The position numbers were made by a program, and so were the translations under genes. The notes below the pieces were generated by a model that had not been told where the DNA came from, did no database searches, and saw nothing but the letters and a program-made list of their open reading frames with translations. This document shows positions 6,369 through 52,058 of a stretch of DNA of 64,000 bases, in pieces; positions within the stretch are counted from its first letter, which is position 1; each line of letters opens with the position of its first letter. Source of the DNA: Gammaproteobacteria bacterium (GTDB taxonomy: Bacteria > Pseudomonadota > Gammaproteobacteria > Burkholderiales > Burkholderiaceae_C); NCBI GenBank assembly GCA_025359085.1, contig JANYHL010000125.1, forward strand, positions 841-64,840, in the 5' to 3' direction.

Positions 6369-6623
6369 TTGAATATCACACAAGCTGTCGGTCGTGTTAT
6401 TGACGAATCTCTATGTTTGAATGGGCGCAGCGCTACTTTCACGCGCAACACACCGCTGCTGGGCGCGATCCCCGAACTGGACTCGATGGCGGTTGTTGCT
6501 CTCATTACGGCGCTGGAAGAGCAGTTTGGCTTGGTCGTGGACGATGATGACATCGACGGCGCGACGTTTGCCACACTGGGTTCCCTGACCGACTTTGTCA
6601 GTCGCAAACTCGCCGTCACCTGA
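6369..6623 (+). CDS. Acyl carrier protein (ACP1), divergent from the ligase
   Basis: 84 aa, acidic, ELDSMAVVALI phosphopantetheine-Ser motif; TTG start after a GGGAG SD. Confidence 0.9.
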   Translation: MNITQAVGRVIDESLCLNGRSATFTRNTPLLGAIPELDSMAVVALITALEEQFGLVVDDDDIDGATFATLGSLTDFVSRKLAVT

Positions 6624-16077: not shown

Positions 16078-17550
16078 TCAGGCCCGAGTCAATAACTGTC
16101 GCCGGGCGCTTGCGATGCTGCGCAACAAATCAAGTACTTCGCGCGTTCCATGGCGATTGAGCCCCCACGACAGCGCGCTGTAAGAAACCCCACCCATGCC
16201 CAGCAGAATCAGCAGGTGCAGCACGCTCTCTTGGTTGCCTGGCAAAAAATGGCGCGTCGCGGTGACGACCGCATACATGCCCAAACTTGCCACCGCGGCA
16301 GGCAACATGGCGATGGCGAGTTGCACGAGACGGAGCTGGAGCACCGGCAGACCACGCATCATGCCCTGCAAAAAGACCAGCGGCGAGACGACCAGCCAGG
16401 CGAGACAAAGGCCCAGCAACCCGCCCTCATTCACACCAATGATGAAAGCCGGCGGCATGAGCAGCGAGGCCCAGATCACGTTGCGCAACACAATGTCGGA
16501 GCGCCCGACCCCCTGGATGGCGGTTGCCACAAAATTGGCCACCATTCGCAGTGGAATGATCAATGCCAACAACTGCAGTGGCACAGTGGAGGCCGCCCAC
16601 TTGGCACCAAGGATCACCTGCACAATTTCCGGGGCGATGCTGGACATGCCCCACAACACCGGGAAGGCAAAAAAACTCAGTACCCGGGTGCCCATGAGTA
16701 CGTTTTCACCGACCTTATGGAGGTCGTGCTGCATACGCGAAAAAGTGGGGAACGCCACTTGATTGACAAGGCCAGAAAGGCGTTGACTGGGCAGCGAGGC
16801 AAGGTGCATGGCAACCGAATAAATGCCGAGAATTTCATTACCCAGCCACTTGGCGCAAATCAGGATGTCAATCTGGGACAAAAACATCCAGAACACCTGA
16901 ATGGCGGTAAAGCTACCCCCAAAGCGCAACAACGAGCGCATACCTGTGAGTGAAAAATCCGGCCAGCGGGAAAAAGGGGAAAGCCAGTTGAGCCCGACGG
17001 TCTTGCCAAGCTGGCTGATCAGGGAGCCGACGACCAGTGCCCAGACACCAGCACCCGCCAGAGCCAGGGTCAGTGTGGTGAGGCTGGCAAGCACCGCATT
17101 GCACAAATCCAGCAGGGACCGATTGCGGAACTCCATCTTGCGCTGCAACTGGGCATCCGGGATAACCGCGAATCCCGCCAGCACAAATTGCAGGGACAGG
17201 GCGCGAATCACCGGGATCACGCGCGGCTCGTCATAGAAGCCGGCAATCAGCGGCGCCGCAAGCACCAACAGGGCAGCCAATGAAAAATGAATCACCAGGA
17301 TGACGCCAAATACGCGCCTGAGCAGAGGCTCATCGACGTCGGCCTTTTGCACCACCGCCGCCCCGAGACCCAATTCAGAGAACATGGAGAGAAATGACAC
17401 AAACACCGTGGCCATGGCGAGCAGACCATAGTCCGCGGGGGTTAGAAGTCGAATCACCGCGAGGGTGATTCCCCAGGTGATCAACTGGCTCGCCAGCCTG
17501 ACGCTGGCAGTCCAGCGAAATCCCGACAGCGCTTGTGACCGCAGGCTCAT
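16078..17550 (-). CDS. wzx: Wzx-type polysaccharide flippase (WzxC-like)
   Basis: About 12-14 TM segments; RLLTPADYGLLAM, ELGLGAAVVQ, GIYSVAMHL, QVAFPTFSR. Confidence 0.9.
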   Translation of the reverse strand: MSLRSQALSGFRWTASVRLASQLITWGITLAVIRLLTPADYGLLAMATVFVSFLSMFSELGLGAAVVQKADVDEPLLRRVFGVILVIHFSLAALLVLAAPLIAGFYDEPRVIPVIRALSLQFVLAGFAVIPDAQLQRKMEFRNRSLLDLCNAVLASLTTLTLALAGAGVWALVVGSLISQLGKTVGLNWLSPFSRWPDFSLTGMRSLLRFGGSFTAIQVFWMFLSQIDILICAKWLGNEILGIYSVAMHLASLPSQRLSGLVNQVAFPTFSRMQHDLHKVGENVLMGTRVLSFFAFPVLWGMSSIAPEIVQVILGAKWAASTVPLQLLALIIPLRMVANFVATAIQGVGRSDIVLRNVIWASLLMPPAFIIGVNEGGLLGLCLAWLVVSPLVFLQGMMRGLPVLQLRLVQLAIAMLPAAVASLGMYAVVTATRHFLPGNQESVLHLLILLGMGGVSYSALSWGLNRHGTREVLDLLRSIASARRQLLTRA

Positions 17551-18851
17551 GACTGGGCCACGTGCTCAAGCCGCTGCTGCAACAGCAAGGCGTCGAGAAA
17601 ATATTTGGTGGCCCAGTTCGGATAAGCTGCCCGCATGTAAGAGCCAAACAGCGGAAAGGATCCGGCCAACGCGCCCACCACCGCAGCATCATCGGACTGG
17701 CGCAATTGGAGCGCTTTCAGAAAATCAAGCAGTTTGTCCGCCTGTATGCGGTAACTTTCCTCCCCGGACAACTCGAACAAGCGATAGGCAACGATGGCGA
17801 TCTGCGCCGAACCGGTCAGACAGGAGGAAAAGCCGGCGGGCTCCCAGTCCGCATAAAAACGACCCGGCAGGTAGCCGTTGCTGGCCATGCGCGGCAGGAT
17901 GGCATCGAGACTGCGCCGAACGGCCTCGATAAAGTCGGATCGCCCCGCGAGAGCACCCACCTCAAGAATGCCCTGCAAGGTGTAGCCAATCGTGTGCGTG
18001 AGCGGCGCCTCGGAATGCGTCAGGCAATTGTGCGCAAACCAGCCATTGTGCCGCTGCTGACGCAACGCGGCTTCCACGATCCAAACCGCCATGCGTTTGT
18101 AGGCATCGTCCTGAGCCAGTTCACCAAAGCGATAGATTGACCAGGCGCACAGACAGGTGTAGGTCTTGATCTCGCCAACACTGACAAAAGCGCCATTGGT
18201 TTTGAAATACCCCTGCTCGTCCAGATCATTGACCAAAAAATCTGCTGCCTGTCGCGCGGCGGCCAGCAGCGTTGGGTCCGCTGAATAGCGGTAGGCGGAG
18301 CACCAGCCGTCAAGCACCATGCCGGTGTTGAATGTCGCGGCGGTCTGGCGCTCGGGCGGGCAGACCGGGCCGCCTTGGACGGCGCCAGAAGGCATTTGCA
18401 CCACCGTTTCCCACATCGCCATGCGCATCGCAGCCGCGGCCGCGACTGGGTCGTCAAACTGCGCCGCAAAGGCCAGCAGCGAGGTGATGATGTAGCCCGT
18501 GGTCTCGGGATACGATGCGCGCCACCCTGCATTTACCTTGTCTTGGTCGTCGTCGATATCGCATGGAAAATAGCCAAGAGACACGCCGTCATCCGGACTG
18601 GCGGCCTGCGCCTGCAACAGCCAGTGCACCGCAGCGCGCGCACGTTCTCGGGTTTCTCCTCGCACCGGTTGAGGCATTGCGGCGGCAAAGCGCCAGTGGC
18701 TGCGGATAACTTCACCGCGGAAGGCTTGGTTATGCGTTGGAAAAAGCGCCCGAAGCTCCCGTGCCACCGCAGCCGCACCCCAATAGGTGCTGCGCAGGCC
18801 ACCCTGCAAATATTGATGGCGCAGGATGCGGGCTATGGCGGTGGGCTTCAA
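17547..18851 (-). CDS. Hypothetical (alpha/alpha)-toroid protein (prenyltransferase/squalene-cyclase-like repeats)
   Basis: AVHWLLQAQ, YPETTGYII, WETVVQMPSGA, FNTGMVLDGW, QQRHNGWF, THTIGYTLQG, CLTGSAQ, NWATKYFLDAL. TTG start 18851 behind AGGAG. Confidence 0.65.
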   Translation of the reverse strand: MKPTAIARILRHQYLQGGLRSTYWGAAAVARELRALFPTHNQAFRGEVIRSHWRFAAAMPQPVRGETRERARAAVHWLLQAQAASPDDGVSLGYFPCDIDDDQDKVNAGWRASYPETTGYIITSLLAFAAQFDDPVAAAAAMRMAMWETVVQMPSGAVQGGPVCPPERQTAATFNTGMVLDGWCSAYRYSADPTLLAAARQAADFLVNDLDEQGYFKTNGAFVSVGEIKTYTCLCAWSIYRFGELAQDDAYKRMAVWIVEAALRQQRHNGWFAHNCLTHSEAPLTHTIGYTLQGILEVGALAGRSDFIEAVRRSLDAILPRMASNGYLPGRFYADWEPAGFSSCLTGSAQIAIVAYRLFELSGEESYRIQADKLLDFLKALQLRQSDDAAVVGALAGSFPLFGSYMRAAYPNWATKYFLDALLLQQRLEHVAQS

Positions 18852-18861
18852 CGGACACTCC

Positions 18862-20097
18862 TTAGAACATGACTTGACCACCAGCCACCAACAAGTTGAC
18901 GCCAGTCAGAAACGAGGCCTGTTCAGCCACCAGATAGGCCACCGCCTGGGCCACATCAGCGGGCGTTGCAATTCTCTTCAAGGGTGTCCGGGCGGCCTCC
19001 ATCTTGAAGACGCGTTCCTGATAGTGCTCAGTCAATTCGGTACGCGTCAGACCGGGCGACACCATGTTGACCCTAATCTGCGCCTCGGCCCACTCCGCCG
19101 CCATCGCCTTGGACAAGCCCATCAGTGCATATTTTGCGCACACATAGTCAGCCATGCCGGTGGCCGGAACGCCAATGGTCACTTGCGAAAGAATATTGAC
19201 GATAGAGCCGCCGCCGGCCGCTTTCATGGCGGGATAAACCGCTTGACACAACTGCAACACCGCTTTGACCTGATACGCCATGTGGCCCTCAAAATCGGGC
19301 CAGCCCAGTTCGCTGAGCGGGCGATTGATGAGATCGCCAACGGCGGCATTCACCAGCACCCGTGGTGGACCCAGCACCTGCTGCACCTGCACCATCAAAG
19401 CGGACACTGAATCAGCATTGCGCACATCAGCCTTCACCGCAAACGCAATGCCACCAGCGAGCTCAATCTCCCGCACCACCTGCAGCGCCCGGTCCGCACT
19501 GCGAAAATAGTTCACCGCCACGGCATAGCCATTTTTGGCCAGCGTCCTGGCAATTTGCGCACCGATGCCTCTGGAGGCCCCTGTCACCAGTGCCACAGGT
19601 CGGCTCGAATCAATTGGCGAGGGGGTCGGCGAATCCACAACCAAGGGCGATGGCGGTAAATCGTCCCTGACCTTGACCTTGGCAGTGCCCGTGACCAGCA
19701 CCTTGTCGTCCATGCTGCGAATCTCGGTATTGAGTACCAGGGTCCGGGTCGCATCGCTTTTACCCACCACTTTGGCGACCGCACGAACCGGCTCATCAAT
19801 GCGCACAGGACGCCGGAAGCTGAGGTCCTGACCCAGGTACAGGGCATGCTTGCCCGGCACGCGCATACCCACCAACTGGGAGAACAAGGACGCCAGCAAA
19901 ATTCCATGCACCACTTGCGACCCGAACTCGGTGCCCGCAGCATATCCGGCGTCAACATGCAAGGGGCTGTAGTCGCCACTTAGGGCAGCGAACGTTTGCA
20001 CATCCTGGTCGGAAAATGATCGCACCAACTCAAAGCTTTGCCCGACGGCAATATCGTCAAAACTGAACTCCGATGCTGGCGCAAAGTCATGCTTCAT
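18862..20097 (-). CDS. MaoC-type hot-dog dehydratase fused to an SDR (FabG-like) reductase
   Basis: FAALSGDYSPLH and VHGILLAS (MaoC); TGASRGIG, NAA, YVCAK, NMVSPG (SDR). Start MKHDF at 20097. Confidence 0.9.
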   Translation of the reverse strand: MKHDFAPASEFSFDDIAVGQSFELVRSFSDQDVQTFAALSGDYSPLHVDAGYAAGTEFGSQVVHGILLASLFSQLVGMRVPGKHALYLGQDLSFRRPVRIDEPVRAVAKVVGKSDATRTLVLNTEIRSMDDKVLVTGTAKVKVRDDLPPSPLVVDSPTPSPIDSSRPVALVTGASRGIGAQIARTLAKNGYAVAVNYFRSADRALQVVREIELAGGIAFAVKADVRNADSVSALMVQVQQVLGPPRVLVNAAVGDLINRPLSELGWPDFEGHMAYQVKAVLQLCQAVYPAMKAAGGGSIVNILSQVTIGVPATGMADYVCAKYALMGLSKAMAAEWAEAQIRVNMVSPGLTRTELTEHYQERVFKMEAARTPLKRIATPADVAQAVAYLVAEQASFLTGVNLLVAGGQVMF

Positions 20098-20125
20098 TTG
20101 AACCCTTGTGCATGGCGCGGACTGA

Positions 20126-20362
20126 CTACAGCTTGGCGCCCACGACCTGGACGACATCAAAATACGACACCATCAATTCGAAGTCAGAGACCTCGAAAGA
20201 AATCGAGAACTCCTCCTCCAAGGCCAGAACGAGATTGATATGGTTGGCAGAGTCCCAACCCGGCGTGTTGTCCATCGAGGTGTTGTCATCGATCATGGTC
20301 GCGTCCATATTCAGGATGATCGCCATCACCGCCCGAATTGTTTCCTCAACATCTTTAGACAT
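20126..20362 (-). CDS. Acyl carrier protein (ACP2)
   Basis: 78 aa, acidic, GWDSANHINLVLALEEEF motif; ATG 20362 overlaps the FkbH stop. Confidence 0.9.
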   Translation of the reverse strand: MSKDVEETIRAVMAIILNMDATMIDDNTSMDNTPGWDSANHINLVLALEEEFSISFEVSDFELMVSYFDVVQVVGAKL

Positions 20363-22328
20363 GCAATGGCTCCGAGCTGAGCACCTGCGCAGCTCGCTTG
20401 CTGGTCTGGGGTGGGACCGAAATCTGGAACCAGTCGGGTCGCCGGACCATGGCTTTTGCCAGGTCCAGCTCCCAGGTGGTGCTACCAGAGTCATCTTCGC
20501 CGAGTTTGCAAAAACCATGTTTCTCAAACAAGTCGCGCACCGGCACATTCTTGTCGGTGGGCACCACACGCCCGCATAATTTATTGAGGCCCCGCTGCCG
20601 CGCAGCATCGCAGAGGTAGGCCAGCATGGCCGTCTCCACCGTACGACCGATGACCCGGCAACTGAGCAAGAAATTATCAATAGTGAGTCGATTCGCGTCC
20701 GCGCGCGCCATCATGAGGCCAACAATGCCGTTGTCACCAAAGCGATCTCGTACCCCCACTGTCACGGCCAAGCTACTCGGGTCGTGCACACGATCATCAA
20801 GCTCAGCCTCACACAAGCGAACGGTGGTGGCGTTGAACTGATTGGTCTTTTGGGTTAATTGGGCTGCGCGCGCACGCGACGTTGAATCGACCGGGGCCAC
20901 ACTTAGCGTCATGTCCAGGTCCCGGTAATAGTCTTCCAGATTGCTGCTGGAAGAGCGCGCGGTTTCTGCCATGGCGCGCTGCTGGTACAACTGACCCCGG
21001 CGCCGATCTTCATCCGACAGGCCAAGGGTGTCGAAAAGCCCCTGCGCGCATAAGGCTTCAACATACAACTCGGGGCGGCACGGTAGTTCAATGACAGTGA
21101 CCATGGGCAATTCGCGCCGAACCTGTTCACATTCAGCCGGATTGTCATCAACGAAAACCATGTGATCCAGACCAATATTAAGTCGTGTGGCAATTATTTT
21201 GAGTGAATCGCTCTTGGGATTCCAGTGTATTTGCAGCTCAGCAAAATGTTCTTTGCGAATCGTCATGAAGCGGTGATTCGCAAACACGGCATCCACATCC
21301 GCAGGATTGTTCTTGCTAGCAACAGCCAACAGGACACCCCGGCGGTAGAGGTCAAGAATCGCTCGTTGAAATTCGACAAAAGCGCTGCCCGGGTAAGTCG
21401 GCCCCAGTTGAATTCCGTCAATGCCGTCCTCGCCGATGACGCCACCCCAAAGCGTGTTGTCTAGGTCGACCACCAAACACTTCTTGCTCAAGCCTTTCAA
21501 CGCACGGAAAAACTTCATGTATTCCTGCGCCAGGTTGCCCAACATACCCATAGCGATGGGCGCCCTGGCGTACAAGCGCATCCTGGCGTCATACCAATGC
21601 TGCGCACCAAACTGGTTAACCAGCCCGGCGTAGTCCACGATATGGACATCGACGATGTCGGCTGTTGTCTCGACCAGGGCGCGGTTCAGGTCAATGACCA
21701 GTTTTGCCTGGCCACGCGTCAAGCCAACATCGGCAATGCCAGCCCTTCTAAGTCGCGGTTGCGCCAGGTTGTGCACCAACAAGGGCATGGTGCTTGCGTC
21801 GCGTAATGTGCGCAACAAGGTGCCAATTTTTTGCTTGAAATTATCGACAACCAGGTCAAGGCTTGCGCTGGCCTGATCCGCATCCATGAAATCGGTATAA
21901 ACCTCAGGCAACCAGTCCTCCCCTTCTATGGCCAGGATAGTCACGTCAGGTGCGAACGCATAGAGACCACTGGTTGGGTCCAGAATCTCCTGGTTAATCA
22001 GGCTAAAACCGGACTGATAGACTTCAATACGCAGGCCATTGGAAAATCCATAGGCGACCAGGGAGTCCTGAATAAAGTCGATCGAAAATGACGAAAGCAA
22101 TGCCACCCGGTAGGGCCTGCAGGTGTTTAGCTCTGGCGGCAGTTCCTTTACCAGTTGGCGCAAGAATCTGAAATTCACCAGACTTGGATTATTTTGCAGC
22201 AGCGCATGCGCGCCCTGAAGCGCCGACGATATCGCGCCAGCCTTGACACTTTGCGCAATCGAGTTGCGTAACTCGCCGTCAGCATCAGCAGTGCGTTTGG
22301 GCACAATTGCCTTGCAACTCTCAGTCAT
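20355..22328 (-). CDS. FkbH-like HAD-IIIC glyceryl transferase/phosphatase
   Basis: VDLDNTLWGG, ASKNN, FVDDNPAE, QLTQKTNQFN, FLLSCRVIGR (acyl-carrying Cys). Confidence 0.93.
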   Translation of the reverse strand: MTESCKAIVPKRTADADGELRNSIAQSVKAGAISSALQGAHALLQNNPSLVNFRFLRQLVKELPPELNTCRPYRVALLSSFSIDFIQDSLVAYGFSNGLRIEVYQSGFSLINQEILDPTSGLYAFAPDVTILAIEGEDWLPEVYTDFMDADQASASLDLVVDNFKQKIGTLLRTLRDASTMPLLVHNLAQPRLRRAGIADVGLTRGQAKLVIDLNRALVETTADIVDVHIVDYAGLVNQFGAQHWYDARMRLYARAPIAMGMLGNLAQEYMKFFRALKGLSKKCLVVDLDNTLWGGVIGEDGIDGIQLGPTYPGSAFVEFQRAILDLYRRGVLLAVASKNNPADVDAVFANHRFMTIRKEHFAELQIHWNPKSDSLKIIATRLNIGLDHMVFVDDNPAECEQVRRELPMVTVIELPCRPELYVEALCAQGLFDTLGLSDEDRRRGQLYQQRAMAETARSSSSNLEDYYRDLDMTLSVAPVDSTSRARAAQLTQKTNQFNATTVRLCEAELDDRVHDPSSLAVTVGVRDRFGDNGIVGLMMARADANRLTIDNFLLSCRVIGRTVETAMLAYLCDAARQRGLNKLCGRVVPTDKNVPVRDLFEKHGFCKLGEDDSGSTTWELDLAKAMVRRPDWFQISVPPQTSKRAAQVLSSEPLHV

Positions 22329-23169
22329 AACAATAGACTCCTTGCTGATGCATTTGACACACTGTCTGAGCCACTGCGGCAGCAGCCAGCACGGTGACTT
22401 TGAGCCCCCCGACCTTCGCCTCTCGCCAGGCGCCCGCCTTCTTCAAGTAGGGAACCATCTTGTGCAGATTGCGACGCTGCGACACCGCTGGCTCAAACAA
22501 GCGGCAACTTGTTTCCAACATGACGCCGTCCCGGGTTTTCGAACACAGGTGAAACACTTCTTGTGTGAATGGAGCGACAGGAAACTCAGTTTCAAGCTTT
22601 TCTTCCAACAGATGAAAGAAGGTTAATACGCCGATATCTGTACCCAGCAAGACAATCTTGCCATCGCGTTGGAGCAAGGCCTCAAAGGGGGTGCCCACAC
22701 CGCAAGGTGTGTGTGCCAGATGGTGCCCGGCCACGATGGCGCAGGCGTCATGCCCCCACACAGCCACCGAGTGGGTTGGATGAACACTGCGCACAACTTG
22801 CGGCGTGCGTCTGAACAGTTCGGTCAGCAAGCCCATCTTCGATGGCGTACGAGACTCATCGAACAGAGGATTGGTTCGGGCGTAGGCGACAGCGGTGCCC
22901 GAGAAGGTCATGGTCGGCATCATGACCATGCCCTCGGTGCCGACCGCAGCCTGCAACACGGAGATGACGTCACTCGGCTTGCCCTGAAATCCTTCAAAGG
23001 CATCGAAAGAACTGTGGACCAGCACGGTCTCACCGCGCCCGACGCCAAGCTCAACCAGCAGGCGTTGCAACTCATCTGCGGCAAATGGACGCAAGGTGTT
23101 GACAACGAATCTCCTGAACACCCTAAGGTGCCGCTTGGCCCGCGTTTTCACACTCTTCAAAGCATTCAT
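22321..23169 (-). CDS. AAC(3)/YokD-family N-acyltransferase
   Basis: LVHSSF, MMPTMTF, MGLLTELFR, RSVHPTHSVAVWG, GKIVLLG, TFFHLLEE. Confidence 0.88.
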   Translation of the reverse strand: MNALKSVKTRAKRHLRVFRRFVVNTLRPFAADELQRLLVELGVGRGETVLVHSSFDAFEGFQGKPSDVISVLQAAVGTEGMVMMPTMTFSGTAVAYARTNPLFDESRTPSKMGLLTELFRRTPQVVRSVHPTHSVAVWGHDACAIVAGHHLAHTPCGVGTPFEALLQRDGKIVLLGTDIGVLTFFHLLEEKLETEFPVAPFTQEVFHLCSKTRDGVMLETSCRLFEPAVSQRRNLHKMVPYLKKAGAWREAKVGGLKVTVLAAAAVAQTVCQMHQQGVYCYD

Positions 23170-23198
23170 TTTTAGACTCGATGCCCGATCAGTTTCAC

Positions 23199-24212
23199 TT
23201 AGTCGGCGGCGACCGAGCCATTGCTCGGAGCGCCGTCCACAAGTTTTTTCAACGTTAACAAGGCGGAGGGCAACACCAGCACCAGAACCACCATGTGGGC
23301 CCGCACCTCTTCGTAGTTTGAAAACACCATGTAAACCGCACTCAAGCCCAGCGCAAATGCGACAGAGGCCACCACAAACCTATGCTTGGATGGCAGAAAG
23401 AACAGGGCAAGAAAAACAGGCAAAGCGTGAACCAGCAGGGGCGGATAGCGAACATTCATTTCCACCAGCTTTTGGGCGTTGCTCCACAGGGTATTGAAGG
23501 CTCCCTGCAAGTTGTAATAGGAGCCATCCACTGGGGATGGAAATAGCTGACCCAACGCCATATAGGTGCCAAACGTGATCAGCAACAAGAATAACGTCTC
23601 CATGCTCGTCTTTAGCCAACCGCTCCTGTTAACGTGAACCAGGAAGTAAAGAAACGGCAGCAAGATCGTGTCGAATTTGACAAGAACGCTAAGGAATAGG
23701 CAGAAGACCAAAACAACGAAATTTCCTTCTGCAACCAGATAGAGAAGTCCGATCCAGAACACCATCTGCAGCCGGTCCCAAGGATGAAAAAGCTGAAACA
23801 GATAAGTCAACGGAAGCATGGCACAAAAATATAAAACGCCCAGCAAACTATAAGGATCTGGCAACCATTTTTTGAGATAAAAATACAATGCCAACAAACC
23901 GACAAACAAAAATGCGGTATCCAGCAGTTTGTAAATTTTGGCAACCGTTAAGCCGGTATTAATCCTGATGGCCTCTGCCAGATAGACGATTCCGATTCGT
24001 TTTTGAATCGAGGTCGCGCCAAGGGCTGTCCAACCCTTGCCGCCCGGCGCCTTGTTTTCCAGGATACCAAAGTGAAGCTCTTCACGCTGCTTTTCAAGTT
24101 GCTTTGAGTAGATGGTTTGATCACCGATCCAGGTTTGCATGCCGATCGTGATCGTGGCCAACAGCCACGACAAAAGGAACAAACCAATCACTTTTTGATA
24201 ATTAGTATTCAT
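23199..24212 (-). CDS. Multi-pass membrane protein, possible GT-C (GtrII-like) glycosyltransferase
   Basis: About 9-10 hydrophobic segments, periplasmic-type loop, PWD and KFD motifs; follows a GtrA-like gene; AT-richer codon usage. Confidence 0.5.
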   Translation of the reverse strand: MNTNYQKVIGLFLLSWLLATITIGMQTWIGDQTIYSKQLEKQREELHFGILENKAPGGKGWTALGATSIQKRIGIVYLAEAIRINTGLTVAKIYKLLDTAFLFVGLLALYFYLKKWLPDPYSLLGVLYFCAMLPLTYLFQLFHPWDRLQMVFWIGLLYLVAEGNFVVLVFCLFLSVLVKFDTILLPFLYFLVHVNRSGWLKTSMETLFLLLITFGTYMALGQLFPSPVDGSYYNLQGAFNTLWSNAQKLVEMNVRYPPLLVHALPVFLALFFLPSKHRFVVASVAFALGLSAVYMVFSNYEEVRAHMVVLVLVLPSALLTLKKLVDGAPSNGSVAAD

Positions 24213-24300
24213 TGCAATAGTTCACCCAATAAAACCGAATGGCGATGCCTTCCCTGCCCGCGCCAAGCGTATGGGCCAGGCTCTCGTTGTGTGCCACCTG

Positions 24301-24714
24301 CTATCTCTGAGTTGGCTGGGCGGGCCCCTTAAAGACAAAGTACTTCTGAATCACATACGACAACACAGCGCTAAACGGCAAGGCAAGGGCACCGGCTGTA
24401 TAGGCGTCAAGCCCAAAGTCGATGATTCGACCTATCAAAAAAATGACGCATAAGTAGATAAATATCCAGCTCAATATAAAACGCCCCAGCAAGCGATTGT
24501 TTCGGTTGTTGAATACCAGATGGCCTTGTGTCTTGAAACTGAACAAGATGCCGATGACCAAGGCAATGAGGTTGGCCATTTGGTAGCTCACGCCGACAGA
24601 CAACAGCAATGCATAAATGAGATAACTAACGCTGGTGTTGAGAATGCCGACCAAAACAAATCTGACGACCACGGCTTTCCTGATTTGTGTCGGAATTGCG
24701 TTCAGAATGTTCAT
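24301..24714 (-). CDS. GtrA-family small flippase-like protein
   Basis: 137 aa, 4 TM; RFVLVGILNT, ANLIA, SFKTQGHLVF, SYVIQKYFVF. Confidence 0.88.
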   Translation of the reverse strand: MNILNAIPTQIRKAVVVRFVLVGILNTSVSYLIYALLLSVGVSYQMANLIALVIGILFSFKTQGHLVFNNRNNRLLGRFILSWIFIYLCVIFLIGRIIDFGLDAYTAGALALPFSAVLSYVIQKYFVFKGPAQPTQR

Positions 24715-25667
24715 TGAAAGTAACCGAACTGGCTCTTTTGATCTACGGCCTTCAACGGTGCAGTTTTGCGAAGCCAATACGCTGCGTTTCCACTTGGAAA
24801 GAGACGCGAGAGCAATATTCCAACAGGCAGGAACAACAAATAGATCAAGAACCTGAACCGCCCCGTCAATACGACCGAAAGGCTGGCAGCGACACCATTC
24901 GGAAAGGACGCCGACTTACTATTGACAACATCGAATCCCCATCGCTCAGAAAGTTGCTTAATAGACGGTGCCTCCGGAAAGCTGATGTGCCTCGGTGCGT
25001 CAAGGTTGTGCCACTTCTTGCCAAAAACCCGCGCCTCCCATGATCCGATATTGGGAATGACAAAATAGAATATCCCATCCGGTTTCAGTAGCCTATGGAC
25101 TATTTCAAAAGCGTGATTGATATCCGTGAGATGCTCAAGCACGAAGTGCATGGTGACGACGTCTACCCGCCCCTCGTGGTCGCGCAGTAGTGCCCGCTCA
25201 TCAGCGTAAACCGGGATTTTTAGCACGTTTGAAAGTTGCGTCGCATGACCCGGATTGGCTTCAAAACCAATGAGATTTAGGTTTTTCGCCTGATTTTCGT
25301 CTAGGAACCAGCCATCGCCACACCCGAAGTCAAGCAACAGTGCCGACTCTTTGATGCTCGTAATATGCCGTCGAGTATTAAAGTAACAGGAGCCCATGAC
25401 CCATGAGCGCATAAGACGATACGGCCACGATTTTTTTTTATGAATCGGGTACGCGTCATAAAAAATGGCCAAATCTTTTGGAATGGGCGCTTGTTGGATG
25501 AGGCCACAGCCAACACAGCGGGCGTAGCTAACTCGACAGGACTTCTGCAGGTAGTAGTCCTTGCAGTCAGACCACACGGTAACAGCAGCAGAGCTGGTGC
25601 ATTGGATACAAGAAAAATCGGAGGTCATCTGCATAGCAAGAGATATTTTTTTATTGGTTTTTTGCAA
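24711..25667 (-). CDS. Class I SAM-dependent methyltransferase with N-terminal Cys motifs
   Basis: CxxC...CxxC N-terminus; LLDFGCGDG, GFE, HFVLEHL, LKPDG, PRH. Confidence 0.85.
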   Translation of the reverse strand: MQKTNKKISLAMQMTSDFSCIQCTSSAAVTVWSDCKDYYLQKSCRVSYARCVGCGLIQQAPIPKDLAIFYDAYPIHKKKSWPYRLMRSWVMGSCYFNTRRHITSIKESALLLDFGCGDGWFLDENQAKNLNLIGFEANPGHATQLSNVLKIPVYADERALLRDHEGRVDVVTMHFVLEHLTDINHAFEIVHRLLKPDGIFYFVIPNIGSWEARVFGKKWHNLDAPRHISFPEAPSIKQLSERWGFDVVNSKSASFPNGVAASLSVVLTGRFRFLIYLLFLPVGILLSRLFPSGNAAYWLRKTAPLKAVDQKSQFGYFQ

Positions 25668-26484
25668 AAATAGCGTGATACACAGCCGCCCTAACGATGG
25701 TATTCAAATGAGCCTTCGCCAGACCAATGGTGCGGTCTGCCCCCGAAATGCAAAATCTGGTGTCCGCCTTGAATTTATCGACAAAACCCTTGAAGTCCCG
25801 ATGCTGTTTCCCACCAATGGCCACACTCCAGGAGCCCGGACTGACCCGAAACGCGGAGGTCTGCGTTGCAGTGTAATAGGCGTCGCCATGCGCAAGAACT
25901 CTGAACCAATAGTCCAGATCGACAAGATAGGGGTGACTGGCATCATAAGTGCCCACTTTTTTGATGATTTCATGCCGAACCAAACCATTGCCGGGCTCAC
26001 CAATCAGGTTGCTTCCTGCACGGATACAGCGCTTGACTAACGCGCCACTTTCAATTCGACCGGTCGCCTGCCGAGCGAGGCCACGCCTCATTAACACCCG
26101 ACCCTCGGTGTCGATGATGTTTCGCGAGCCGAACACCAGCGCAATCTGGCCGGCAGGGTCGTTTTCCAGCACCGCAACCTGTTTTTCAAGACAATCAGGC
26201 GCGAGTAAATCGTCATGGGGTAGTAGTTTGAAGTACTTGCCGTGAGCCACTTCGAGGCAACGATTCCAATTGCCTTCAGGGCCTAGATTGTGGGTGTTTC
26301 TGATGTATTTGATGCGTGGATCGCCATAGCGCGCGAGCAGCTTCGGCGTGTCGTCAGGCGAGTGGTCATCGAGTATGCACAACTCGAAATAGGGGTAGGT
26401 TTGATTCAAAACCGACTCGATCGTCTTACCCAAAAATGCGGCCCCGCGGTAAGTTGGTATGCAGACAGACACTTTGGCATTCAT
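25651..26484 (-). CDS. GT2 family glycosyltransferase
   Basis: VSVCIPTYRG, LDDHSPDDT, NWN, LLPHDD, DLDYWFR. Confidence 0.9.
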   Translation of the reverse strand: MNAKVSVCIPTYRGAAFLGKTIESVLNQTYPYFELCILDDHSPDDTPKLLARYGDPRIKYIRNTHNLGPEGNWNRCLEVAHGKYFKLLPHDDLLAPDCLEKQVAVLENDPAGQIALVFGSRNIIDTEGRVLMRRGLARQATGRIESGALVKRCIRAGSNLIGEPGNGLVRHEIIKKVGTYDASHPYLVDLDYWFRVLAHGDAYYTATQTSAFRVSPGSWSVAIGGKQHRDFKGFVDKFKADTRFCISGADRTIGLAKAHLNTIVRAAVYHAIFAKNQ

Positions 26485-28553: not shown

Positions 28554-29828
28554 TCAAACGGGTAAAGAAGGGGCACAATTTTCACGAGCAGCTTGGTTCA
28601 GAAAGGTGACCAAGGTCTCTGATCGTCCCAGCCGCGATGCTTTTTGGACAGCCAGTCGTTGCGGAAGACGCAAATTCCCGAGTCGCCAATCACGCACAAA
28701 AGTCGTCAAGGCCCGGGCAATTTCATCAGCGGAGTCAAGCGAAGCCGTGTCAGTCAAGCCAGCGCCTCGCAGCACCTCTGCTGTGTCCCCGGCAGAATCG
28801 GTCAACCCCAGAATGGGCTTGTCTGCGCGCAAATATTCGTAGATTTTTGCGGGTATCTGGGCATTGCAGTTGCTGGCCTGCATCACCAGCAGGGCATCAA
28901 CCGCCATCATTTCAGACAGCGCCTCGCGGTAGGACATGGCGGGGCACAGTTCAATGAAATCTTGCGCATCATGGGTTTGCGCCAAGTGTTGCAGCAGTTC
29001 ATCATGGACTGAAGCCCGAAATCGGATGCGCAGATCACCCTCCGTCAAGACTCCCGCTTTCTTCAGCCGTCCCAGGGCGACAAACAATTGTGTCGGATCG
29101 CGCTCCGACGGGTAAACAATACCGCTGTGCAGCATCAACAGCGGGCGCGCGGGCGCATCCAACACCTGGGCGCTTTCGGTGGGTGGCGGCGCAGCAGCAA
29201 AACTTTCTTCGTCATAACCGTTTTCAAGAACCACAATGCGACGGGAGGCAGCCGGGTAGCGTTGCTGGTACATCTGTGCCGCACCGGGCGTTGTAAACAC
29301 GCTGTAGCGTGCTCGCGCCAGTGCATCTTCCTCGACGGCCAAGTAGCTGCGCCAGGTGCGCGGATCGGCGGGATAACCCGCATGCGCCATGGGGTCGCGG
29401 AAGTCTGCGATCCACGGGATACCCGACTTTCGGTGCAGTGCCGAGCCAATCACATGCGCAGTTGCGATCGGGTAAGTGGACCAGATCAGATCCGGTTTGA
29501 AATCGTCAATCATCCTGAGTCCTTCACGGATGGCGGCGAACTTCCAACTGATCCAGCGGTCAGGTCGTGCCATCCAGCCCAAGTAACGCCCGGCAAACTG
29601 GAGGTGTCGTGCTGTATCCAGCGCAAACGGACGACGCACCACGGTGCCCGCTGGTACGTCTGCCAACAGATCATCACTGCTCTTCTCATAGGCCCGCGGG
29701 TCGGCGCTCAACACCAGCGGCTGCCACCCAAAGGACGGCAGATGTTGTACGAAACGCAGCGTCCGTTGAATGCCGCTGCTCCCCGCCAAAGGCGGGAAGT
29801 GGTAGGCAATCATCAATATTTTTTTCAC
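28554..29828 (-). CDS. GT4 family glycosyltransferase
   Basis: ILMIAYHFPP..SG, WIADFRDP, NGYDEE, HSGIVY, PAKIYEYL..KPIL; GTG start 29828. Confidence 0.88.
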   Translation of the reverse strand: MKKILMIAYHFPPLAGSSGIQRTLRFVQHLPSFGWQPLVLSADPRAYEKSSDDLLADVPAGTVVRRPFALDTARHLQFAGRYLGWMARPDRWISWKFAAIREGLRMIDDFKPDLIWSTYPIATAHVIGSALHRKSGIPWIADFRDPMAHAGYPADPRTWRSYLAVEEDALARARYSVFTTPGAAQMYQQRYPAASRRIVVLENGYDEESFAAAPPPTESAQVLDAPARPLLMLHSGIVYPSERDPTQLFVALGRLKKAGVLTEGDLRIRFRASVHDELLQHLAQTHDAQDFIELCPAMSYREALSEMMAVDALLVMQASNCNAQIPAKIYEYLRADKPILGLTDSAGDTAEVLRGAGLTDTASLDSADEIARALTTFVRDWRLGNLRLPQRLAVQKASRLGRSETLVTFLNQAARENCAPSLPV

Positions 29829-29933
29829 GCGGTCTCCGTGCGCCAAGGCAATGTCACTGCCACGCTGTAGCCGGTTACCCAAGCCAGCGAAGCCGTTGGT
29901 GTCAGGCCAAAGGAGGCGTTGAGTCGCTTCGCC

Positions 29934-30362: not shown

Positions 30363-30539
30363 GATGCATCTCCGAAATTTGGGTTGGGCTGGGTTCAGAC
30401 CAACCAGCCAGCGGCATGAACGCCAACCGTTCACCTGCACCGTTGATTCCGTCGTATCTCCGAAACCCACCCGGGTTGGCTGATCATCTGTTTGAGAGCC
30501 CAAGCATGCCCGCTGACGATAGGGTCAAGATGCGAAATA

Positions 30540-49989: not shown

Positions 49990-50865
49990 TCAAGCGGCGT
50001 TCGCTGGTTGACTGAATCGGTCCAGGAAGATTTGGTCCATACGTCCCCACTTGAAGTCACCGAGCAAGCGGTTCAGACGACCTTCCATGCGCTTAATATT
50101 GACGTAATGCCGAAACCGGGTCTTGCTGCTGATGCCCTCAATGCGAGGCTGTCCAGGGTCAATCTCCCAGGGATGAAAATAGAAGATGCCTGACTGATGC
50201 TCATGGCCGTTCACCCGACTGAGCATCCAATGGGACCAGGCATAGGGCAGCAATCTGAAGTAGCCCCCCCCACTGGAGGGCAAGTTGCGGTTAAACAACC
50301 GCAACGTGGTAATCGGAATTTCCATCAACCCGGGACGCACTTCATAGGCAAAACGAGGCGAATCCGGCATGCCATAGTGATCGTGCCGAATCGGGTAGAC
50401 GCTGGAGCTGTAGCGGTAACCCGCCCGGGCCAGGCAGTCAAAGGCCCAGAGATTGCCACTGCCAATTGAAAAACTGGGGGCACGATAACCGTTGACTACG
50501 CTGCCTGCCACATCTTCCAGAATAATCTTGGCCAGTTGAATGTCGGCAAAAAATGCGGCTTCGGTTTGATCGCTGGCACGCTCATGGCCATAACCATGAC
50601 TGGCCAGTTCATGCCCTTGGCGCACGATGTGCCGTACCAACTCAGGATAACGCTCAGCAATCCAGCCGAGCGTAAAAAATGTAGCCTTGGTATCGGTGTC
50701 GGCGAGCATTTCAAGGATGCAATCAATATTACGTTCTATCCGGCATTCACGCAGATTCCACTCGGAGCGGGCAATATGCGGCGCAAATGCCGAAACCTGA
50801 AAATAGTCTTCCACATCAATAGTCAACGCATTGGTGAGGGGAGCAACTGGCATAGAAATTTTCAT
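49990..50865 (-). CDS. Polysaccharide deacetylase, XrtA system (TIGR03006-like)
   Basis: NALTIDVEDYFQV, ATFFTLGW, HELASHG, GYRAPSFSI, GGGYFRL, FYFHPWEID. Confidence 0.93.
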   Translation of the reverse strand: MKISMPVAPLTNALTIDVEDYFQVSAFAPHIARSEWNLRECRIERNIDCILEMLADTDTKATFFTLGWIAERYPELVRHIVRQGHELASHGYGHERASDQTEAAFFADIQLAKIILEDVAGSVVNGYRAPSFSIGSGNLWAFDCLARAGYRYSSSVYPIRHDHYGMPDSPRFAYEVRPGLMEIPITTLRLFNRNLPSSGGGYFRLLPYAWSHWMLSRVNGHEHQSGIFYFHPWEIDPGQPRIEGISSKTRFRHYVNIKRMEGRLNRLLGDFKWGRMDQIFLDRFSQPANAA

Positions 50866-52058
50866 AAGGCAACCGACTTCGATGCCATGGCTGCTTGCCG
50901 CTGCTTCAGCCACGGGTACATGTCGGCGGCGATCCGCTGCGCCGCCTGCCCATCCCAAAGCTCGGGCAAGCGACCGCGCTTTCCTTTGCCAGCCAGGATG
51001 TCCCTTACCGCACCCAAAATGGCGGCCCGATGGCGGCCCACGAGCGTGTTGGTGCCTTGCTCCACGGTGATCGGACGCTCGGTATTTTCCCGCAGCGTCA
51101 GGCAAGGCACCCCCAGCGCCGTGGTTTCCTCCTGTAACCCGCCTGAGTCCGTCAGCACCACCGTGGCTTCGGCCATCAGTCCCAGCATTTCAAGATAGCC
51201 CTGCGGCGGCAGCAAGGCCATGCGCGCGGGGTCAATCAAGTTCATCAGACCAAACCGCTCAATATTGTTGCGGGTACGCGGATGCAGCACAAAAACCAGG
51301 GGCAAGCTGGTGGCGACCTCACTCAGTACGCCAAGCAATGCGCGCAAAGTCTCAAGGTGATCCACATTGGAGGGGCGATGCAAGGTCACCACCCCCAAGC
51401 CCAAAGGGTGCTTAAAAACCGCAGGGTCGATTTGACACGCTTGTAGCGTGTCGCGCGCGCTTCGGGCGTTGGCCCGGCCAAAAAACACCGAGTCAATCAT
51501 GACGTTTCCGGCAAAACAGACCCGGTCTGGCGCGACACCCTCGCGCACCAGGTTGTCTTGCGCCGTGCGTTCTGTGGTGTAGAGTCGATCAGCAATCTGG
51601 TCGGTCAGTATGCGGTTGATTTCTTCCGGCATGGTACGGTCATAACTGCGCAGTCCAGCCTCGATATGCACCACTGGCACGCCTTTTTTGACGGCTACCA
51701 ACGCGCAAGCCAGCGTGGAATTCACGTCTCCGACGACCGCCACGCAGGAGGGCAGGTAGGCATCAAGGACGGGCTCGAACCGGCGCATCACCTCAGCCGT
51801 CTGCATCGCGTGCGTGCCCGACCCCACTTCAAGATTGACATCCGGGGTGGGCAAGCGCAGGTCTTCAAACAGACGCTCACTCATATCCTTGTCGTAATGC
51901 TGGCCGGTGTGCACCAGTAGCACCGGCAGCGCGGGCACATGAGCGGCCATGGCCCGCAGAATAGGCGCCATCTTCATGAAGTTGGGGCGCGCACCGACGA
52001 CGCAAATCACAGGCCTCAACTCTCCATCTGCTGCTTGCCGACGCGTCGGCCCATTCAT
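50862..52058 (-). CDS. wecB: UDP-N-acetylglucosamine 2-epimerase (non-hydrolysing)
   Basis: VGARPNFMK, HTGQHYD, HIEAGLRS, EEINR, TLHRPSN, DSGGLQEE, TERP. Confidence 0.93.
   Translation of the reverse strand: MNGPTRRQAADGELRPVICVVGARPNFMKMAPILRAMAAHVPALPVLLVHTGQHYDKDMSERLFEDLRLPTPDVNLEVGSGTHAMQTAEVMRRFEPVLDAYLPSCVAVVGDVNSTLACALVAVKKGVPVVHIEAGLRSYDRTMPEEINRILTDQIADRLYTTERTAQDNLVREGVAPDRVCFAGNVMIDSVFFGRANARSARDTLQACQIDPAVFKHPLGLGVVTLHRPSNVDHLETLRALLGVLSEVATSLPLVFVLHPRTRNNIERFGLMNLIDPARMALLPPQGYLEMLGLMAEATVVLTDSGGLQEETTALGVPCLTLRENTERPITVEQGTNTLVGRHRAAILGAVRDILAGKGKRGRLPELWDGQAAQRIAADMYPWLKQRQAAMASKSVAL

What the first reader, a model, noticed from the sequence alone, without database searches (positions are those of the whole stretch)
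18862..23169. Discrete FkbH-ACP-dehydratase/reductase-AAC(3) cassette: putative glyceryl/lactyl donor and transferase for a sugar
Seen: AAC(3)-like acyltransferase, FkbH, ACP2 and a MaoC-SDR fusion are consecutive; the first three have overlapping stops and starts. Established: FkbH loads glyceryl from 1,3-bisphosphoglycerate onto ACP; dehydratase/ketoreductase/FkbH/ACP loading modules of some trans-AT PKSs (e.g. bryostatin BryA) are proposed to give lactyl units; AAC(3)-fold enzymes acylate amino groups; N-glyceroyl and N-lactoyl amino sugars occur in bacterial polysaccharides. Inference: glyceryl-ACP is dehydrated (MaoC) and reduced (SDR) to lactyl-ACP, and the AAC(3) homologue uses acyl-ACP rather than acetyl-CoA to N-acylate an amino sugar. 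There is no ketosynthase in the window, so this looks like PKS-style starter chemistry reused for EPS tailoring.
Basis: partly seen in the sequence, partly recalled or inferred. Interest (0 to 1): 0.75.

Follow-up and report, generated by a model that had tools for sequence, protein, structure and literature searches.

The report
Carrier-protein sugar-acylation cassette in EPS locus
A tightly packed five-gene module inside an exopolysaccharide gene cluster probably builds a three-carbon acid (lactic or glyceric) on a small carrier protein and attaches it to an amino group of a sugar. The attaching enzyme has a fold otherwise known from aminoglycoside resistance, and the route is widespread but has never been tested biochemically.

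Summary
On the minus strand lie an AAC(3)-fold acyltransferase (NAT, 22321-23169), a long FkbH-like loader (20355-22328), an ACP (20126-20362) and a MaoC-SDR fusion (18862-20097). NAT/FkbH and FkbH/ACP each overlap by 8 nt.

It travels with the cassette in 14 loci from several phyla and is fused to NAT in other organisms.

The cassette sits in the variable part of an exosortase-A EPS locus, next to Wzx. MaoC-SDR is optional: it is present in 11 related loci and cleanly absent in 5. This fits an ACP-level tailoring step (glyceryl to lactyl).

Among the nearest NAT relatives are A-PCP-NAT and AT-ACP-NAT fusions. These support a carrier-protein-dependent off-loading role.

FkbH keeps all HAD motifs and one invariant Cys. 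MaoC keeps its Asp and His, and the SDR keeps its Ser-Tyr-Lys.

The acceptor amine, the exact acyl group and the role of the barrel protein remain inferred. N-glyceroyl, di-O-methylglyceroyl and N-(R)-lactoyl sugars are published, but their genes are not established.

Verdict: an untested variant of FkbH/ACP chemistry, used for glycan tailoring. Earlier agents of this scan have already noted it several times.

The parts
22321..23169 (-). NAT: AAC(3)-fold (Antibiotic_NAT) acyltransferase, 282 aa, with a basic N-terminal extension. Proposed off-loader from acyl-ACP to an amine.
   Evidence: PF02522 E 6.7e-51. NCBIfam AAC(3) models score 50-91 bits against cut-offs of 270-675. Best solved relative is FrbF 3SMA, E 9e-21. 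Directly upstream of FkbH in 15 loci. Nearest relatives include carrier-domain fusions. 9 K/R against 1 D/E in the first 32 residues.
20355..22328 (-). Long FkbH-like protein, 657 aa: FkbH_N domain, HAD-IIIC phosphatase, and a C-terminal GNAT-like half carrying the invariant Cys557. Proposed 1,3-bisphosphoglycerate-dependent glyceryl-S-ACP synthase.
   Evidence: TIGR01686 339 bits (cut-off 146.65), TIGR01681, PF21211. PDB 3SLR (BF1531) aligns over residues 52-439, E 6.7e-49. Invariant in 81 sequences: DLDNT 288-292, SKNN 338-341, K372, DD 394-395, and the only invariant Cys, C557 in SCRVIGR.
20126..20362 (-). ACP2: dedicated acidic acyl carrier protein, 78 aa, with the phosphopantetheine serine in GWDS (S38).
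   Evidence: PF00550 E 4.6e-5. Found directly after FkbH in 75 of 80 loci. W36-D37-S38 kept in at least 90% of 72 homologues. 15 D/E against 3 K/R. Two PPTase genes lie elsewhere in the genome.
18862..20097 (-). MaoC (R)-hydratase/dehydratase fused to a FabG-like classical SDR, 411 aa. Proposed to dehydrate glyceryl-ACP to pyruvoyl-ACP and reduce it to lactyl-ACP. An optional member of the cassette.
   Evidence: PF01575, PF13561 and PF00106. Hydratase-2 motif SGDxSPLH with D42 and H47 kept in 14 of 15 sequences. TGASRGIG, NAAVG, S304 and Y318-x3-K322 kept in the close clade. Present in 11 related loci, absent in L003, L009, L012, L015 and L016.
17547..18851 (-). aa6: soluble (alpha/alpha)6-barrel protein, 434 aa, with no family model. 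The fifth conserved cassette member and a partner of NAT.
   Evidence: No Pfam or NCBIfam hit. Present in 14 related loci, mean column identity 66%. AF2 pLDDT 79, pTM 0.85. Foldseek hits GH88, cellobiose 2-epimerase/AGE, GH76 and GH127, E 1e-10 to 1e-7. Fused C-terminally to NAT in P0382 (hhalign E 1.3e-62) and P0353 (E 5e-22). TTG start behind GGAG.
16078..17550 (-). Wzx-type flippase. Its start overlaps the aa6 stop. It travels with the cassette in Comamonadaceae loci.
   Evidence: PF13440 E 8e-78. 60-74% identical and adjacent to aa6 in L001, L002, L004, L005 and L006.
28554..29882 (-). GT4-like glycosyltransferase that co-occurs with the cassette. Candidate transferase for the modified sugar (context only).
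   Evidence: PF13579/PF13439. Best-hit orthologues lie near the cassette in L001, L002, L004-L008 and L011, 34-75% identity.
49990..51105 (-). CE4 polysaccharide deacetylase with DUF3473, from the exosortase-A core. Candidate maker of the free sugar amine (context only).
   Evidence: PF01522 + PF11959. The same domain pair lies 0.6 kb upstream of NAT in the Mycobacteriaceae locus L016.

Best explanation
The five genes form one translationally coupled operon that makes a carrier-bound C3 hydroxy-acyl group and hands it to an amine of an exopolysaccharide sugar.

Proposed steps:
1. Inferred from family: the FkbH-like enzyme takes 1,3-bisphosphoglycerate, forms a glyceryl thioester on Cys557, removes the phosphate with its HAD domain, and passes D-glyceryl to holo-ACP2.
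2. Inferred: the MaoC domain eliminates the 3-OH, giving 2-hydroxyacryloyl-ACP, which tautomerises to pyruvoyl-ACP. The fused SDR reduces the 2-keto group to give (R)-lactyl-ACP. Cassettes without MaoC-SDR would deliver glyceroyl instead.
3. Inferred, supported by fusions: the AAC(3)-fold NAT docks the acidic ACP through its basic N-terminal extension and transfers the acyl group to a free amino group. It works together with the (alpha/alpha)6 protein, which probably binds or prepares the sugar acceptor.
4. Inferred from context: all proteins are cytoplasmic and the operon runs on into Wzx. The modified unit would therefore be built on a nucleotide- or undecaprenyl-linked precursor, for example a hexosamine freed by the CE4/DUF3473 deacetylase of the locus, before flipping and polymerisation.
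For: - Gene content and overlaps.
- Conserved synteny: NAT-FkbH-ACP in 15 loci across several phyla, aa6 in 14, MaoC-SDR in 11.
- Natural variants at about 70% identity differ only by MaoC-SDR (L003 against L001).
- FkbH catalytic motifs and the single invariant Cys.
- MaoC Asp/His and the SDR Ser-Tyr-Lys are intact.
- Carrier-domain fusions among the 150 nearest NAT representatives: C-A-PCP-NAT, A-PCP-NAT and AT-ACP-NAT.
- NAT-aa6 fusions.
- NAT scores far below the AAC(3) resistance cut-offs.
- Basic NAT N-terminus against an acidic ACP.
- PPTases are present in the genome.
- The setting is an exosortase-A EPS locus with Wzx, Wzy, glycosyltransferases and deacetylases.
- A deacetylase lies next to NAT in L016.
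- Matching acyl groups are known on glycans without known genes: N-glyceroyl Pse (PMC5378307), di-O-methylglyceroyl Pse in C. jejuni, whose locus has cj1296/7 and the fkbH-domain gene cj1302 (PMC3068675, PMC7099621), and N-(R)-lactoyl Pse (PMC7281560).
- DH-KR-FkbH-ACP loading modules giving D-lactyl-ACP are accepted PKS logic (own knowledge; PMC7901079 table).
Against: - No step has been shown biochemically, here or in the literature. Only one paper in the library mentions both FkbH and glycans.
- The nearest characterised NAT relative, FrbF, uses acetyl-CoA (own knowledge).
- The SDR is most similar to 3-oxoacyl reductases, not 2-oxo reductases. MaoC enzymes normally act on C4 or longer substrates.
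- No aminotransferase is in the window. No acceptor-making gene recurs next to the cassette: 62 neighbour ORFs from 7 loci share no family in more than 2 members.
- Some loci place the cassette among genes unrelated to glycans.
- The function of aa6 is unknown.
Confidence: 0.55

Rival explanations
1. The same loader and off-loader apply, but the delivered group is not lactoyl. MaoC-SDR would make another glycerate derivative (pyruvoyl, hydroxypyruvoyl, an epimerised glyceroyl, or an enol form). Alternatively it supplies (R)-3-hydroxyacyl units from fatty-acid intermediates, like a PhaJ-PhaB pair.
For: The SDR is closest to 3-oxoacyl-ACP and acetoacetyl-CoA reductases. MaoC family members are (R)-3-hydroxyacyl hydratases. 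More distant MaoC-SDR homologues next to FkbH lack the catalytic Tyr (L020, L048, L052). N-3-hydroxybutanoyl sugars are common in glycans (own knowledge; PMC5378307 lists Hb).
Against: There is no ketosynthase or thiolase in the window to make a C4 unit. MaoC-SDR always sits beside the FkbH-ACP pair and is the only difference between otherwise near-identical cassettes. The dehydrate-then-reduce order matches the accepted PKS lactate-starter logic.
Confidence: 0.2
2. The cassette acylates something other than the exopolysaccharide, for example a small amine, a lipid such as an amino-hopanoid or aminolipid, or a protein-linked glycan. Its place in this EPS locus would then be incidental to its mobility.
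For: In several loci the neighbours are not glycan genes: CcmB, AcrB, CusF/HlyD and VTT-domain proteins. The cassette is rare in its own family, 2 of 121 genera. The aa6 domain of P0382 also touches squalene-cyclase models. NAT domains end NRPS and PKS modules.
Against: In this window and in five Comamonadaceae loci the operon continues without a gap into Wzx and lies among glycosyltransferases. In Acidobacteriota it lies between a phosphoglycosyl transferase, a FemAB-type GNAT and a GT4. The aa6 fold matches sugar-acting enzymes best.
Confidence: 0.15
3. The NAT is an ordinary acetyl-CoA-dependent N-acetyltransferase, or an aminoglycoside resistance enzyme, that merely neighbours an FkbH-ACP unit. 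The ACP-bound product would then be released by another enzyme.
For: Every characterised member of PF02522 uses acetyl-CoA (own knowledge; PDB hits). In FkbH loci at about 40% identity the pair works with other partners and no NAT: VOC, a 373-aa unknown or GNAT, FkbM.
Against: NAT shares an 8-nt overlap with FkbH and keeps that position in 15 loci. It fails every AAC(3) cut-off. Its nearest relatives include three fusions directly behind a carrier domain. No other candidate off-loader is in the cassette.
Confidence: 0.07

Closest known systems
FkbH/FkbJ-type glyceryl-ACP formation (FkbH, OzmB, and the tetronate enzymes Tmn16/ChlD1) in polyketide pathways
   Same: An FkbH domain over the curated cut-off, HAD motifs, a conserved Cys and a dedicated adjacent ACP. 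The long form with an N-terminal FkbH_N domain resembles the tetronate-type enzymes (own knowledge).
   Different: There is no ketosynthase, no FkbK/FkbI/FkbG oxidation-methylation set and no tetronate-forming FabH-like enzyme. The acyl group is proposed to leave by amide formation on a sugar, not by chain extension.
Lactate-starter loading modules of trans-AT PKSs (DH-KR-FkbH-ACP, e.g. bryostatin BryA and FR901464)
   Same: The same set of activities occurs around one ACP: loader, dehydratase and ketoreductase. They are proposed to turn glyceryl-ACP into D-lactyl-ACP (own knowledge; PMC7901079).
   Different: The proteins here are free-standing. The dehydratase is MaoC-type and the reductase is a classical FabG-like SDR, not PKS DH and KR domains. 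No KS follows.
Campylobacter jejuni NCTC 11168 flagellin glycosylation island, cj1295-cj1304 (di-O-methylglyceroyl pseudaminic acid)
   Same: A glycan locus holding an N-acetyltransferase-like gene (cj1296/7), an fkbH-domain gene (cj1302) and, from memory of the genome annotation, ACP genes and a methyltransferase. The glycan carries an N-linked glycerate derivative (PMC3068675, PMC7099621).
   Different: Only cj1295 has been tied to the modification by mutation. No MaoC-SDR or (alpha/alpha)6 gene is reported there. The sequences were not compared here. The target there is a nonulosonic acid on a protein, not an EPS.
FrbF (PDB 3SMA) and AAC(3) aminoglycoside acetyltransferases
   Same: The same fold family, PF02522. 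FrbF, the best solved match, acylates an amine on a nucleotide-linked substrate (own knowledge).
   Different: Those enzymes use acetyl-CoA. This clade fails the AAC(3) cut-offs, has a basic N-terminal extension, is coupled to FkbH-ACP, and occurs fused behind carrier domains.
Vibrio cholerae O1 RfbK-O pathway (ACP-dependent N-tetronate on perosamine)
   Same: A dedicated ACP inside an O-antigen locus is used to build a short hydroxy-acyl group that ends as an amide on an amino sugar (own knowledge).
   Different: The loader (acyl ligase type), the tailoring enzymes and the hexapeptide-type transferase all differ, and no FkbH is involved. Not compared by sequence here.

Membership tests
FkbH-type glyceryl-S-ACP synthase (TIGR01686 / HAD-IIIC) | Full FkbH domain above the curated cut-off | tested here: met
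   339.3 bits against 146.65, model positions 2-319 of 323. Same result in the genome search.
FkbH-type glyceryl-S-ACP synthase (TIGR01686 / HAD-IIIC) | HAD phosphatase motifs I-IV | tested here: met
   DLDNT 288-292, SKNN 338-341, K372 and DD 394-395 are invariant in 81 sequences.
FkbH-type glyceryl-S-ACP synthase (TIGR01686 / HAD-IIIC) | Conserved cysteine for the glyceryl-S-enzyme intermediate | tested here: met
   C557 in SCRVIGR is the only invariant Cys. That it is the acyl-accepting residue is inferred.
FkbH-type glyceryl-S-ACP synthase (TIGR01686 / HAD-IIIC) | Dedicated ACP partner | tested here: met
   An ACP follows directly downstream in 75 of 80 loci.
FkbH-type glyceryl-S-ACP synthase (TIGR01686 / HAD-IIIC) | Uses 1,3-bisphosphoglycerate and yields glyceryl-ACP | not testable with these tools
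   Needs an enzyme assay with phosphopantetheine-ejection MS.
AAC(3) aminoglycoside 3-N-acetyltransferase (resistance enzymes) | Antibiotic_NAT fold (PF02522) | tested here: met
   173.5 bits against a cut-off of 25.
AAC(3) aminoglycoside 3-N-acetyltransferase (resistance enzymes) | Score above an NCBIfam AAC(3) subfamily cut-off | tested here: not met
   Best is 90.7 bits against 270. The others score 50-76 against 420-675.
AAC(3) aminoglycoside 3-N-acetyltransferase (resistance enzymes) | Acetyl-CoA donor and aminoglycoside acceptor | not testable with these tools
   Context and fusions argue against it, but no assay exists.
PKS lactate-starter loading module (DH-KR-FkbH-ACP) | FkbH and ACP together with a dehydratase and a ketoreductase | tested here: inconclusive
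   All four activities are present. However, the dehydratase is MaoC-type and the reductase is a classical SDR, so they are analogous and not homologous to PKS DH and KR domains.
PKS lactate-starter loading module (DH-KR-FkbH-ACP) | A downstream ketosynthase that extends the starter | tested here: not met
   No KS domain in any ORF of the window.
MaoC (R)-specific enoyl hydratase/dehydratase | Hydratase-2 motif with catalytic Asp and His | tested here: met
   SGD42-YSPL-H47 is kept in 14 of 15 aligned sequences. Asn is replaced by Ser.
Classical SDR (FabG-like) | TGxxxGxG, NAAG and the Ser-Tyr-Lys catalytic residues | tested here: met
   TGASRGIG, NAAVG, S304 and Y318-x3-K322. All are kept in the close clade, and Tyr is lost in three distant homologues.
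C. jejuni cj1296-cj1304-type glyceroyl cassette | Sequence orthology of NAT, FkbH and ACP to cj1296/7, cj1302 and acpP2 | not tested
The resemblance rests on the annotations in PMC3068675 and PMC7099621.
Exosortase A (XrtA) PEP-CTERM EPS locus | Exosortase EpsH with DUF3485, plus AsnB-type, FemAB-type, CE4/DUF3473, Wzz/kinase and Wza genes | tested here: met
   PF09721 + PF11984 at 46116-47702. The other components are listed.

The most novel reading that the evidence does not exclude
A whole branch of the AAC(3)/Antibiotic_NAT fold is not a set of acetyl-CoA enzymes. It is a so far unrecognised class of carrier-protein-dependent off-loading N-acyltransferases. Its members release ACP- or PCP-bound acyl groups as amides. 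They occur free-standing with FkbH-ACP in glycan tailoring, and as terminal domains of NRPS and PKS modules. They work with a new (alpha/alpha)6 partner domain that presents the acceptor. Presence or absence of MaoC-SDR would then be the genetic switch between N-lactoyl and N-glyceroyl sugars, whose biosynthetic genes are currently unknown.
Probability: 0.4. Interest if true: 0.8.

Novelty: new variant of a known kind. Interest (0 to 1): 0.62.

Why it matters
N-glyceroyl, di-O-methylglyceroyl and N-(R)-lactoyl groups are found on bacterial surface sugars, including flagellin and S-layer glycans of pathogens. The genes that install them are unknown. PMC5378307 calls the genetic basis "a major challenge".

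This cassette is a concrete and easily testable candidate route. It needs four or five soluble proteins and a glycolytic intermediate.

If the AAC(3)-fold enzyme really takes acyl-ACP, three things follow. It would be a new chain-release chemistry for carrier-protein pathways. It would change how non-resistance "AAC(3)" hits in genomes and resistome surveys are read. And it would provide a gene marker for predicting acyl decorations of polysaccharides from sequence.

Tried and rejected
- Aminoglycoside resistance gene. Rejected: NAT fails all NCBIfam AAC(3) cut-offs and is translationally coupled to FkbH.
- Cryptic PKS or tetronate pathway. Rejected: the window has no KS or FabH-like gene.
- Known family for the 434-aa protein. 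Pfam, NCBIfam and a PDB sequence search gave nothing better than E 0.02. Only the fold search placed it, in the (alpha/alpha)6 class.
- Rosetta-stone search for MaoC-SDR-ACP fusions.
- P0368 (700 aa, NAT at the C-terminus). Its N-terminal half is not aa6-like.
- Recurrent acceptor-making gene near the cassette. The Pfam tally of 62 neighbour ORFs found no recurrent family and no aminotransferase.
- FkbH in the 14 control genomes. No hits, so no named reference organism could be used.
- Literature. The searches found no biochemical study of FkbH in glycan synthesis.
- Notes for this genome or for the aa6 sequence. None exist.

Full report
**What is there**

The finding lies in a run of minus-strand genes.
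- Pfam and NCBIfam identify an Antibiotic_NAT (AAC(3)-fold) protein at 22321-23169 (E 6.7e-51).
- A 657-aa FkbH-like protein lies at 20355-22328. It matches the TIGR01686 FkbH domain with 339 bits against a cut-off of 146.65, and also HAD-IIIC and FkbH_N.
- A 78-aa ACP lies at 20126-20362.
- A MaoC-SDR fusion ends at 18862.
- NAT/FkbH and FkbH/ACP overlap by 8 nt each.
- The in-frame ATG at 20097, 28 nt after the ACP stop, is the likely MaoC-SDR start.

Ten nucleotides after the MaoC-SDR stop, behind a GGAG, a TTG opens a 434-aa gene at 17547-18851. Its stop overlaps the start of a Wzx flippase.

**Setting**

The window is a canonical exosortase-A/PEP-CTERM exopolysaccharide locus. It contains:
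- the exosortase EpsH with DUF3485;
- three AsnB-type amidotransferases;
- FemAB-type GNATs and two CE4 deacetylases, one with DUF3473;
- WecB/WecC and UDP-glucose dehydrogenase;
- Wzy-like proteins and many glycosyltransferases;
- Wzz/kinase and Wza;
- the acyl-CoA-ligase / PLP-decarboxylase / hydrolase module, with its own ACP1 near 6380-6623.

The cassette sits in the variable glycosyltransferase/Wzx part, where G+C dips. No ketosynthase and no DegT-type aminotransferase is encoded in the window.

**The cassette is a conserved, mobile unit of five genes**

A genome-collection scan with the FkbH protein returned 80 loci.
- Among the 17 loci whose FkbH is at least 47% identical, NAT lies directly upstream of FkbH in 15, and the ACP lies directly downstream. 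These loci come from Comamonadaceae, Acidobacteriota, Methylococcaceae, Cytophagia, Magnetococcales and Mycobacteriaceae.
- The 434-aa protein is present in 14 of these loci.
- The MaoC-SDR fusion is present in 11 and cleanly absent in 5: L003, L009, L012, L015 and L016.
- L003, a Comamonadaceae contig with about 70% identical proteins, has ACP followed at once by the 434-aa gene. MaoC-SDR is therefore the only difference from the window's arrangement.
- In the remaining 63 loci (FkbH about 40% identical) the FkbH-ACP pair persists in 59, but with other partners: a VOC/glyoxalase-like protein, a 373-aa protein without a family or with a weak GNAT match, FkbM methyltransferase, and YdjC.
- Within the window's own family, only 2 of 121 genera have a NAT homologue at E <= 1e-40.

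Together this describes a horizontally mobile tailoring module built around a portable FkbH-ACP loader.

**State of the catalytic machinery**

- Across 81 FkbH sequences the HAD motifs are invariant: DLDNT 288-292, SKNN 338-341, K372 and DD 394-395. So is a single cysteine, C557 in SCRVIGR, in the C-terminal half.
- The N-terminal and HAD parts match the solved but uncharacterised Bacteroides protein BF1531 (3SLR).
- The MaoC domain keeps the hydratase-2 Asp and His (SGD42-YSPL-H47) in 14 of 15 sequences.
- The SDR keeps TGASRGIG, NAAVG, S304 and Y318-x3-K322 in the close clade. Three distant homologues have lost the Tyr.
- The ACP keeps its GWDS serine and is very acidic.
- The genome has two phosphopantetheinyl transferases.

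**The AAC(3)-fold protein**

It belongs to PF02522 but scores 50-91 bits against NCBIfam AAC(3) cut-offs of 270-675, so it is not a resistance-type AAC(3). Its best solved relative is FrbF.

A search of 1.8 billion cluster representatives was informative. Among the 150 nearest relatives are:
- a C-A-PCP-NAT protein of 1056 aa;
- an A-PCP-NAT protein;
- an AT-ACP-NAT protein;
- a FemAB-NAT protein.

In the first three, NAT sits directly behind a carrier domain. That is the position where a chain-releasing domain is expected. A conserved basic N-terminal extension (7-11 K/R in 32 residues), lacking in the aligned AAC(3) structures, could dock the acidic ACP. This last point is inference.

**The fifth protein**

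- It has no Pfam or NCBIfam model and no transmembrane segment.
- It is highly conserved, with 66% mean column identity over 13 sequences.
- Its AlphaFold model (pLDDT 79, pTM 0.85) is an (alpha/alpha)6 barrel. The closest matches are GH88 unsaturated glucuronyl hydrolases, cellobiose 2-epimerase/AGE enzymes, GH76 and GH127.
- Two of the nearest NAT relatives are natural NAT-barrel fusions. Their C-terminal halves align with this family at E 1.3e-62 and 5e-22.

It is therefore a functional partner of NAT, most simply the part that binds or prepares a sugar acceptor. Its chemistry is unknown.

**Most likely mechanism**

1. FkbH diverts 1,3-bisphosphoglycerate to glyceryl-ACP2 (family knowledge).
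2. MaoC eliminates the 3-hydroxyl to the enol of pyruvoyl-ACP. The SDR then reduces it to (R)-lactyl-ACP. This is the same logic accepted for DH-KR-FkbH-ACP loading modules (own knowledge; PMC7901079).
3. NAT, together with the barrel protein, moves the acyl group to an amine.
4. The modified unit is flipped by the co-travelling Wzx.

A de-N-acetylated hexosamine is a reasonable acceptor. The locus has CE4 deacetylases, and the same CE4/DUF3473 type lies 0.6 kb upstream of NAT in L016. This point is weak, however. Neighbours of the cassette in seven other loci share no recurrent family, and some are unrelated to glycans.

The with/without MaoC-SDR variants match the two published amide groups: N-glyceroyl (T. 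forsythia, PMC5378307; methylated in C. jejuni, PMC3068675) and N-(R)-lactoyl (Psychrobacter marincola, PMC7281560).

I put about 0.55 on the overall mechanism. My confidence differs by part:
- Higher: that the five genes act as one unit, and that the FkbH-ACP loading step is real.
- Lower: that the acyl group is lactoyl, and that the acceptor is an EPS amino sugar.

**Comparison with what is known, and novelty**

FkbH/ACP glyceryl loading and the lactate-starter logic are known from polyketide pathways. In glycans, the only published hint is the C. jejuni island that holds cj1296/7 and the fkbH-domain gene cj1302, where only cj1295 has been tested (PMC3068675, PMC7099621). The library holds a single paper that mentions both FkbH and glycans.

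Earlier agents of this scan have noted similar cassettes several times, including a nearly identical five-gene unit in another exosortase-A locus. The finding is therefore not unique to this window.

- the natural with/without MaoC-SDR variants;
- the carrier-domain-NAT fusions;
- the NAT-barrel fusions;
- the match with published N-lactoyl and N-glyceroyl sugars.

I class it as a new variant of a known kind: uncharacterised, widespread and directly testable.

Noticed in passing
window 14173-16074 (-): One 633-aa ORF joins Mur-ligase middle and C-terminal domains to a complete peptidyl-tRNA hydrolase domain (residues 461-631). It lies directly after Wzx and is conserved at 71% identity in the same position in L001. 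This is an odd fusion for an EPS locus. It may be linked to amino-acid addition to a uronic acid.
   Followed up: no
P0322, P0326, P0328 (representatives found with the window's NAT): NRPS and PKS modules that end in an Antibiotic_NAT domain (C-A-PCP-NAT, A-PCP-NAT, AT-ACP-NAT). The domain sits where a thioesterase or condensation domain is usual.
   Followed up: partly
P0390: A FemAB-like domain fused to an Antibiotic_NAT domain. The FemAB part weakly matches the XrtA/PEP-CTERM-associated FemAB model TIGR03019.
   Followed up: no
L018-L080 (e.g. L033:9342-13076, L044:9496-12108): In Acidobacteriota the FkbH-ACP pair recurs with a 143-158 aa VOC/Glyoxalase_4 protein upstream and a roughly 373-aa protein without any Pfam model downstream, in place of NAT and the barrel protein. 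This appears to be a second, different off-loading set.
   Followed up: partly
window about 6380-6623 (+): A second ACP-like ORF (ACP1) lies on the plus strand, before the two alpha/beta-hydrolase genes and divergent from the AMP-ligase. The 664-aa minus-strand ORF 4625-6619 therefore probably starts later than listed.
   Followed up: partly
window 30540-33734 (-): A 1064-aa protein combines an N-terminal VanZ domain with a Wzy_C (O-antigen ligase/polymerase) domain.
   Followed up: no
window 12518-14149 (-), 23199-24212 (-), 29934-30503 (-): Three ORFs have no Pfam or NCBIfam match. The 337-aa one (23199-24212) has about nine predicted membrane spans. It sits just upstream of NAT and recurs at 48-52% identity in L005 and L006.
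   Followed up: no
window 22001-26000: G+C falls to 0.49-0.53, against about 0.59 for the rest of the window. The dip covers the membrane protein, GtrA, methyltransferase and GT2 genes upstream of the cassette, which suggests a recently acquired variable block.
   Followed up: no
L016:7399-8541: In a Mycobacteriaceae MAG, a CE4 deacetylase with DUF3473 (the exosortase-locus type) lies 0.6 kb upstream of NAT-FkbH-ACP. That locus has neither MaoC-SDR nor the barrel protein.
   Followed up: partly
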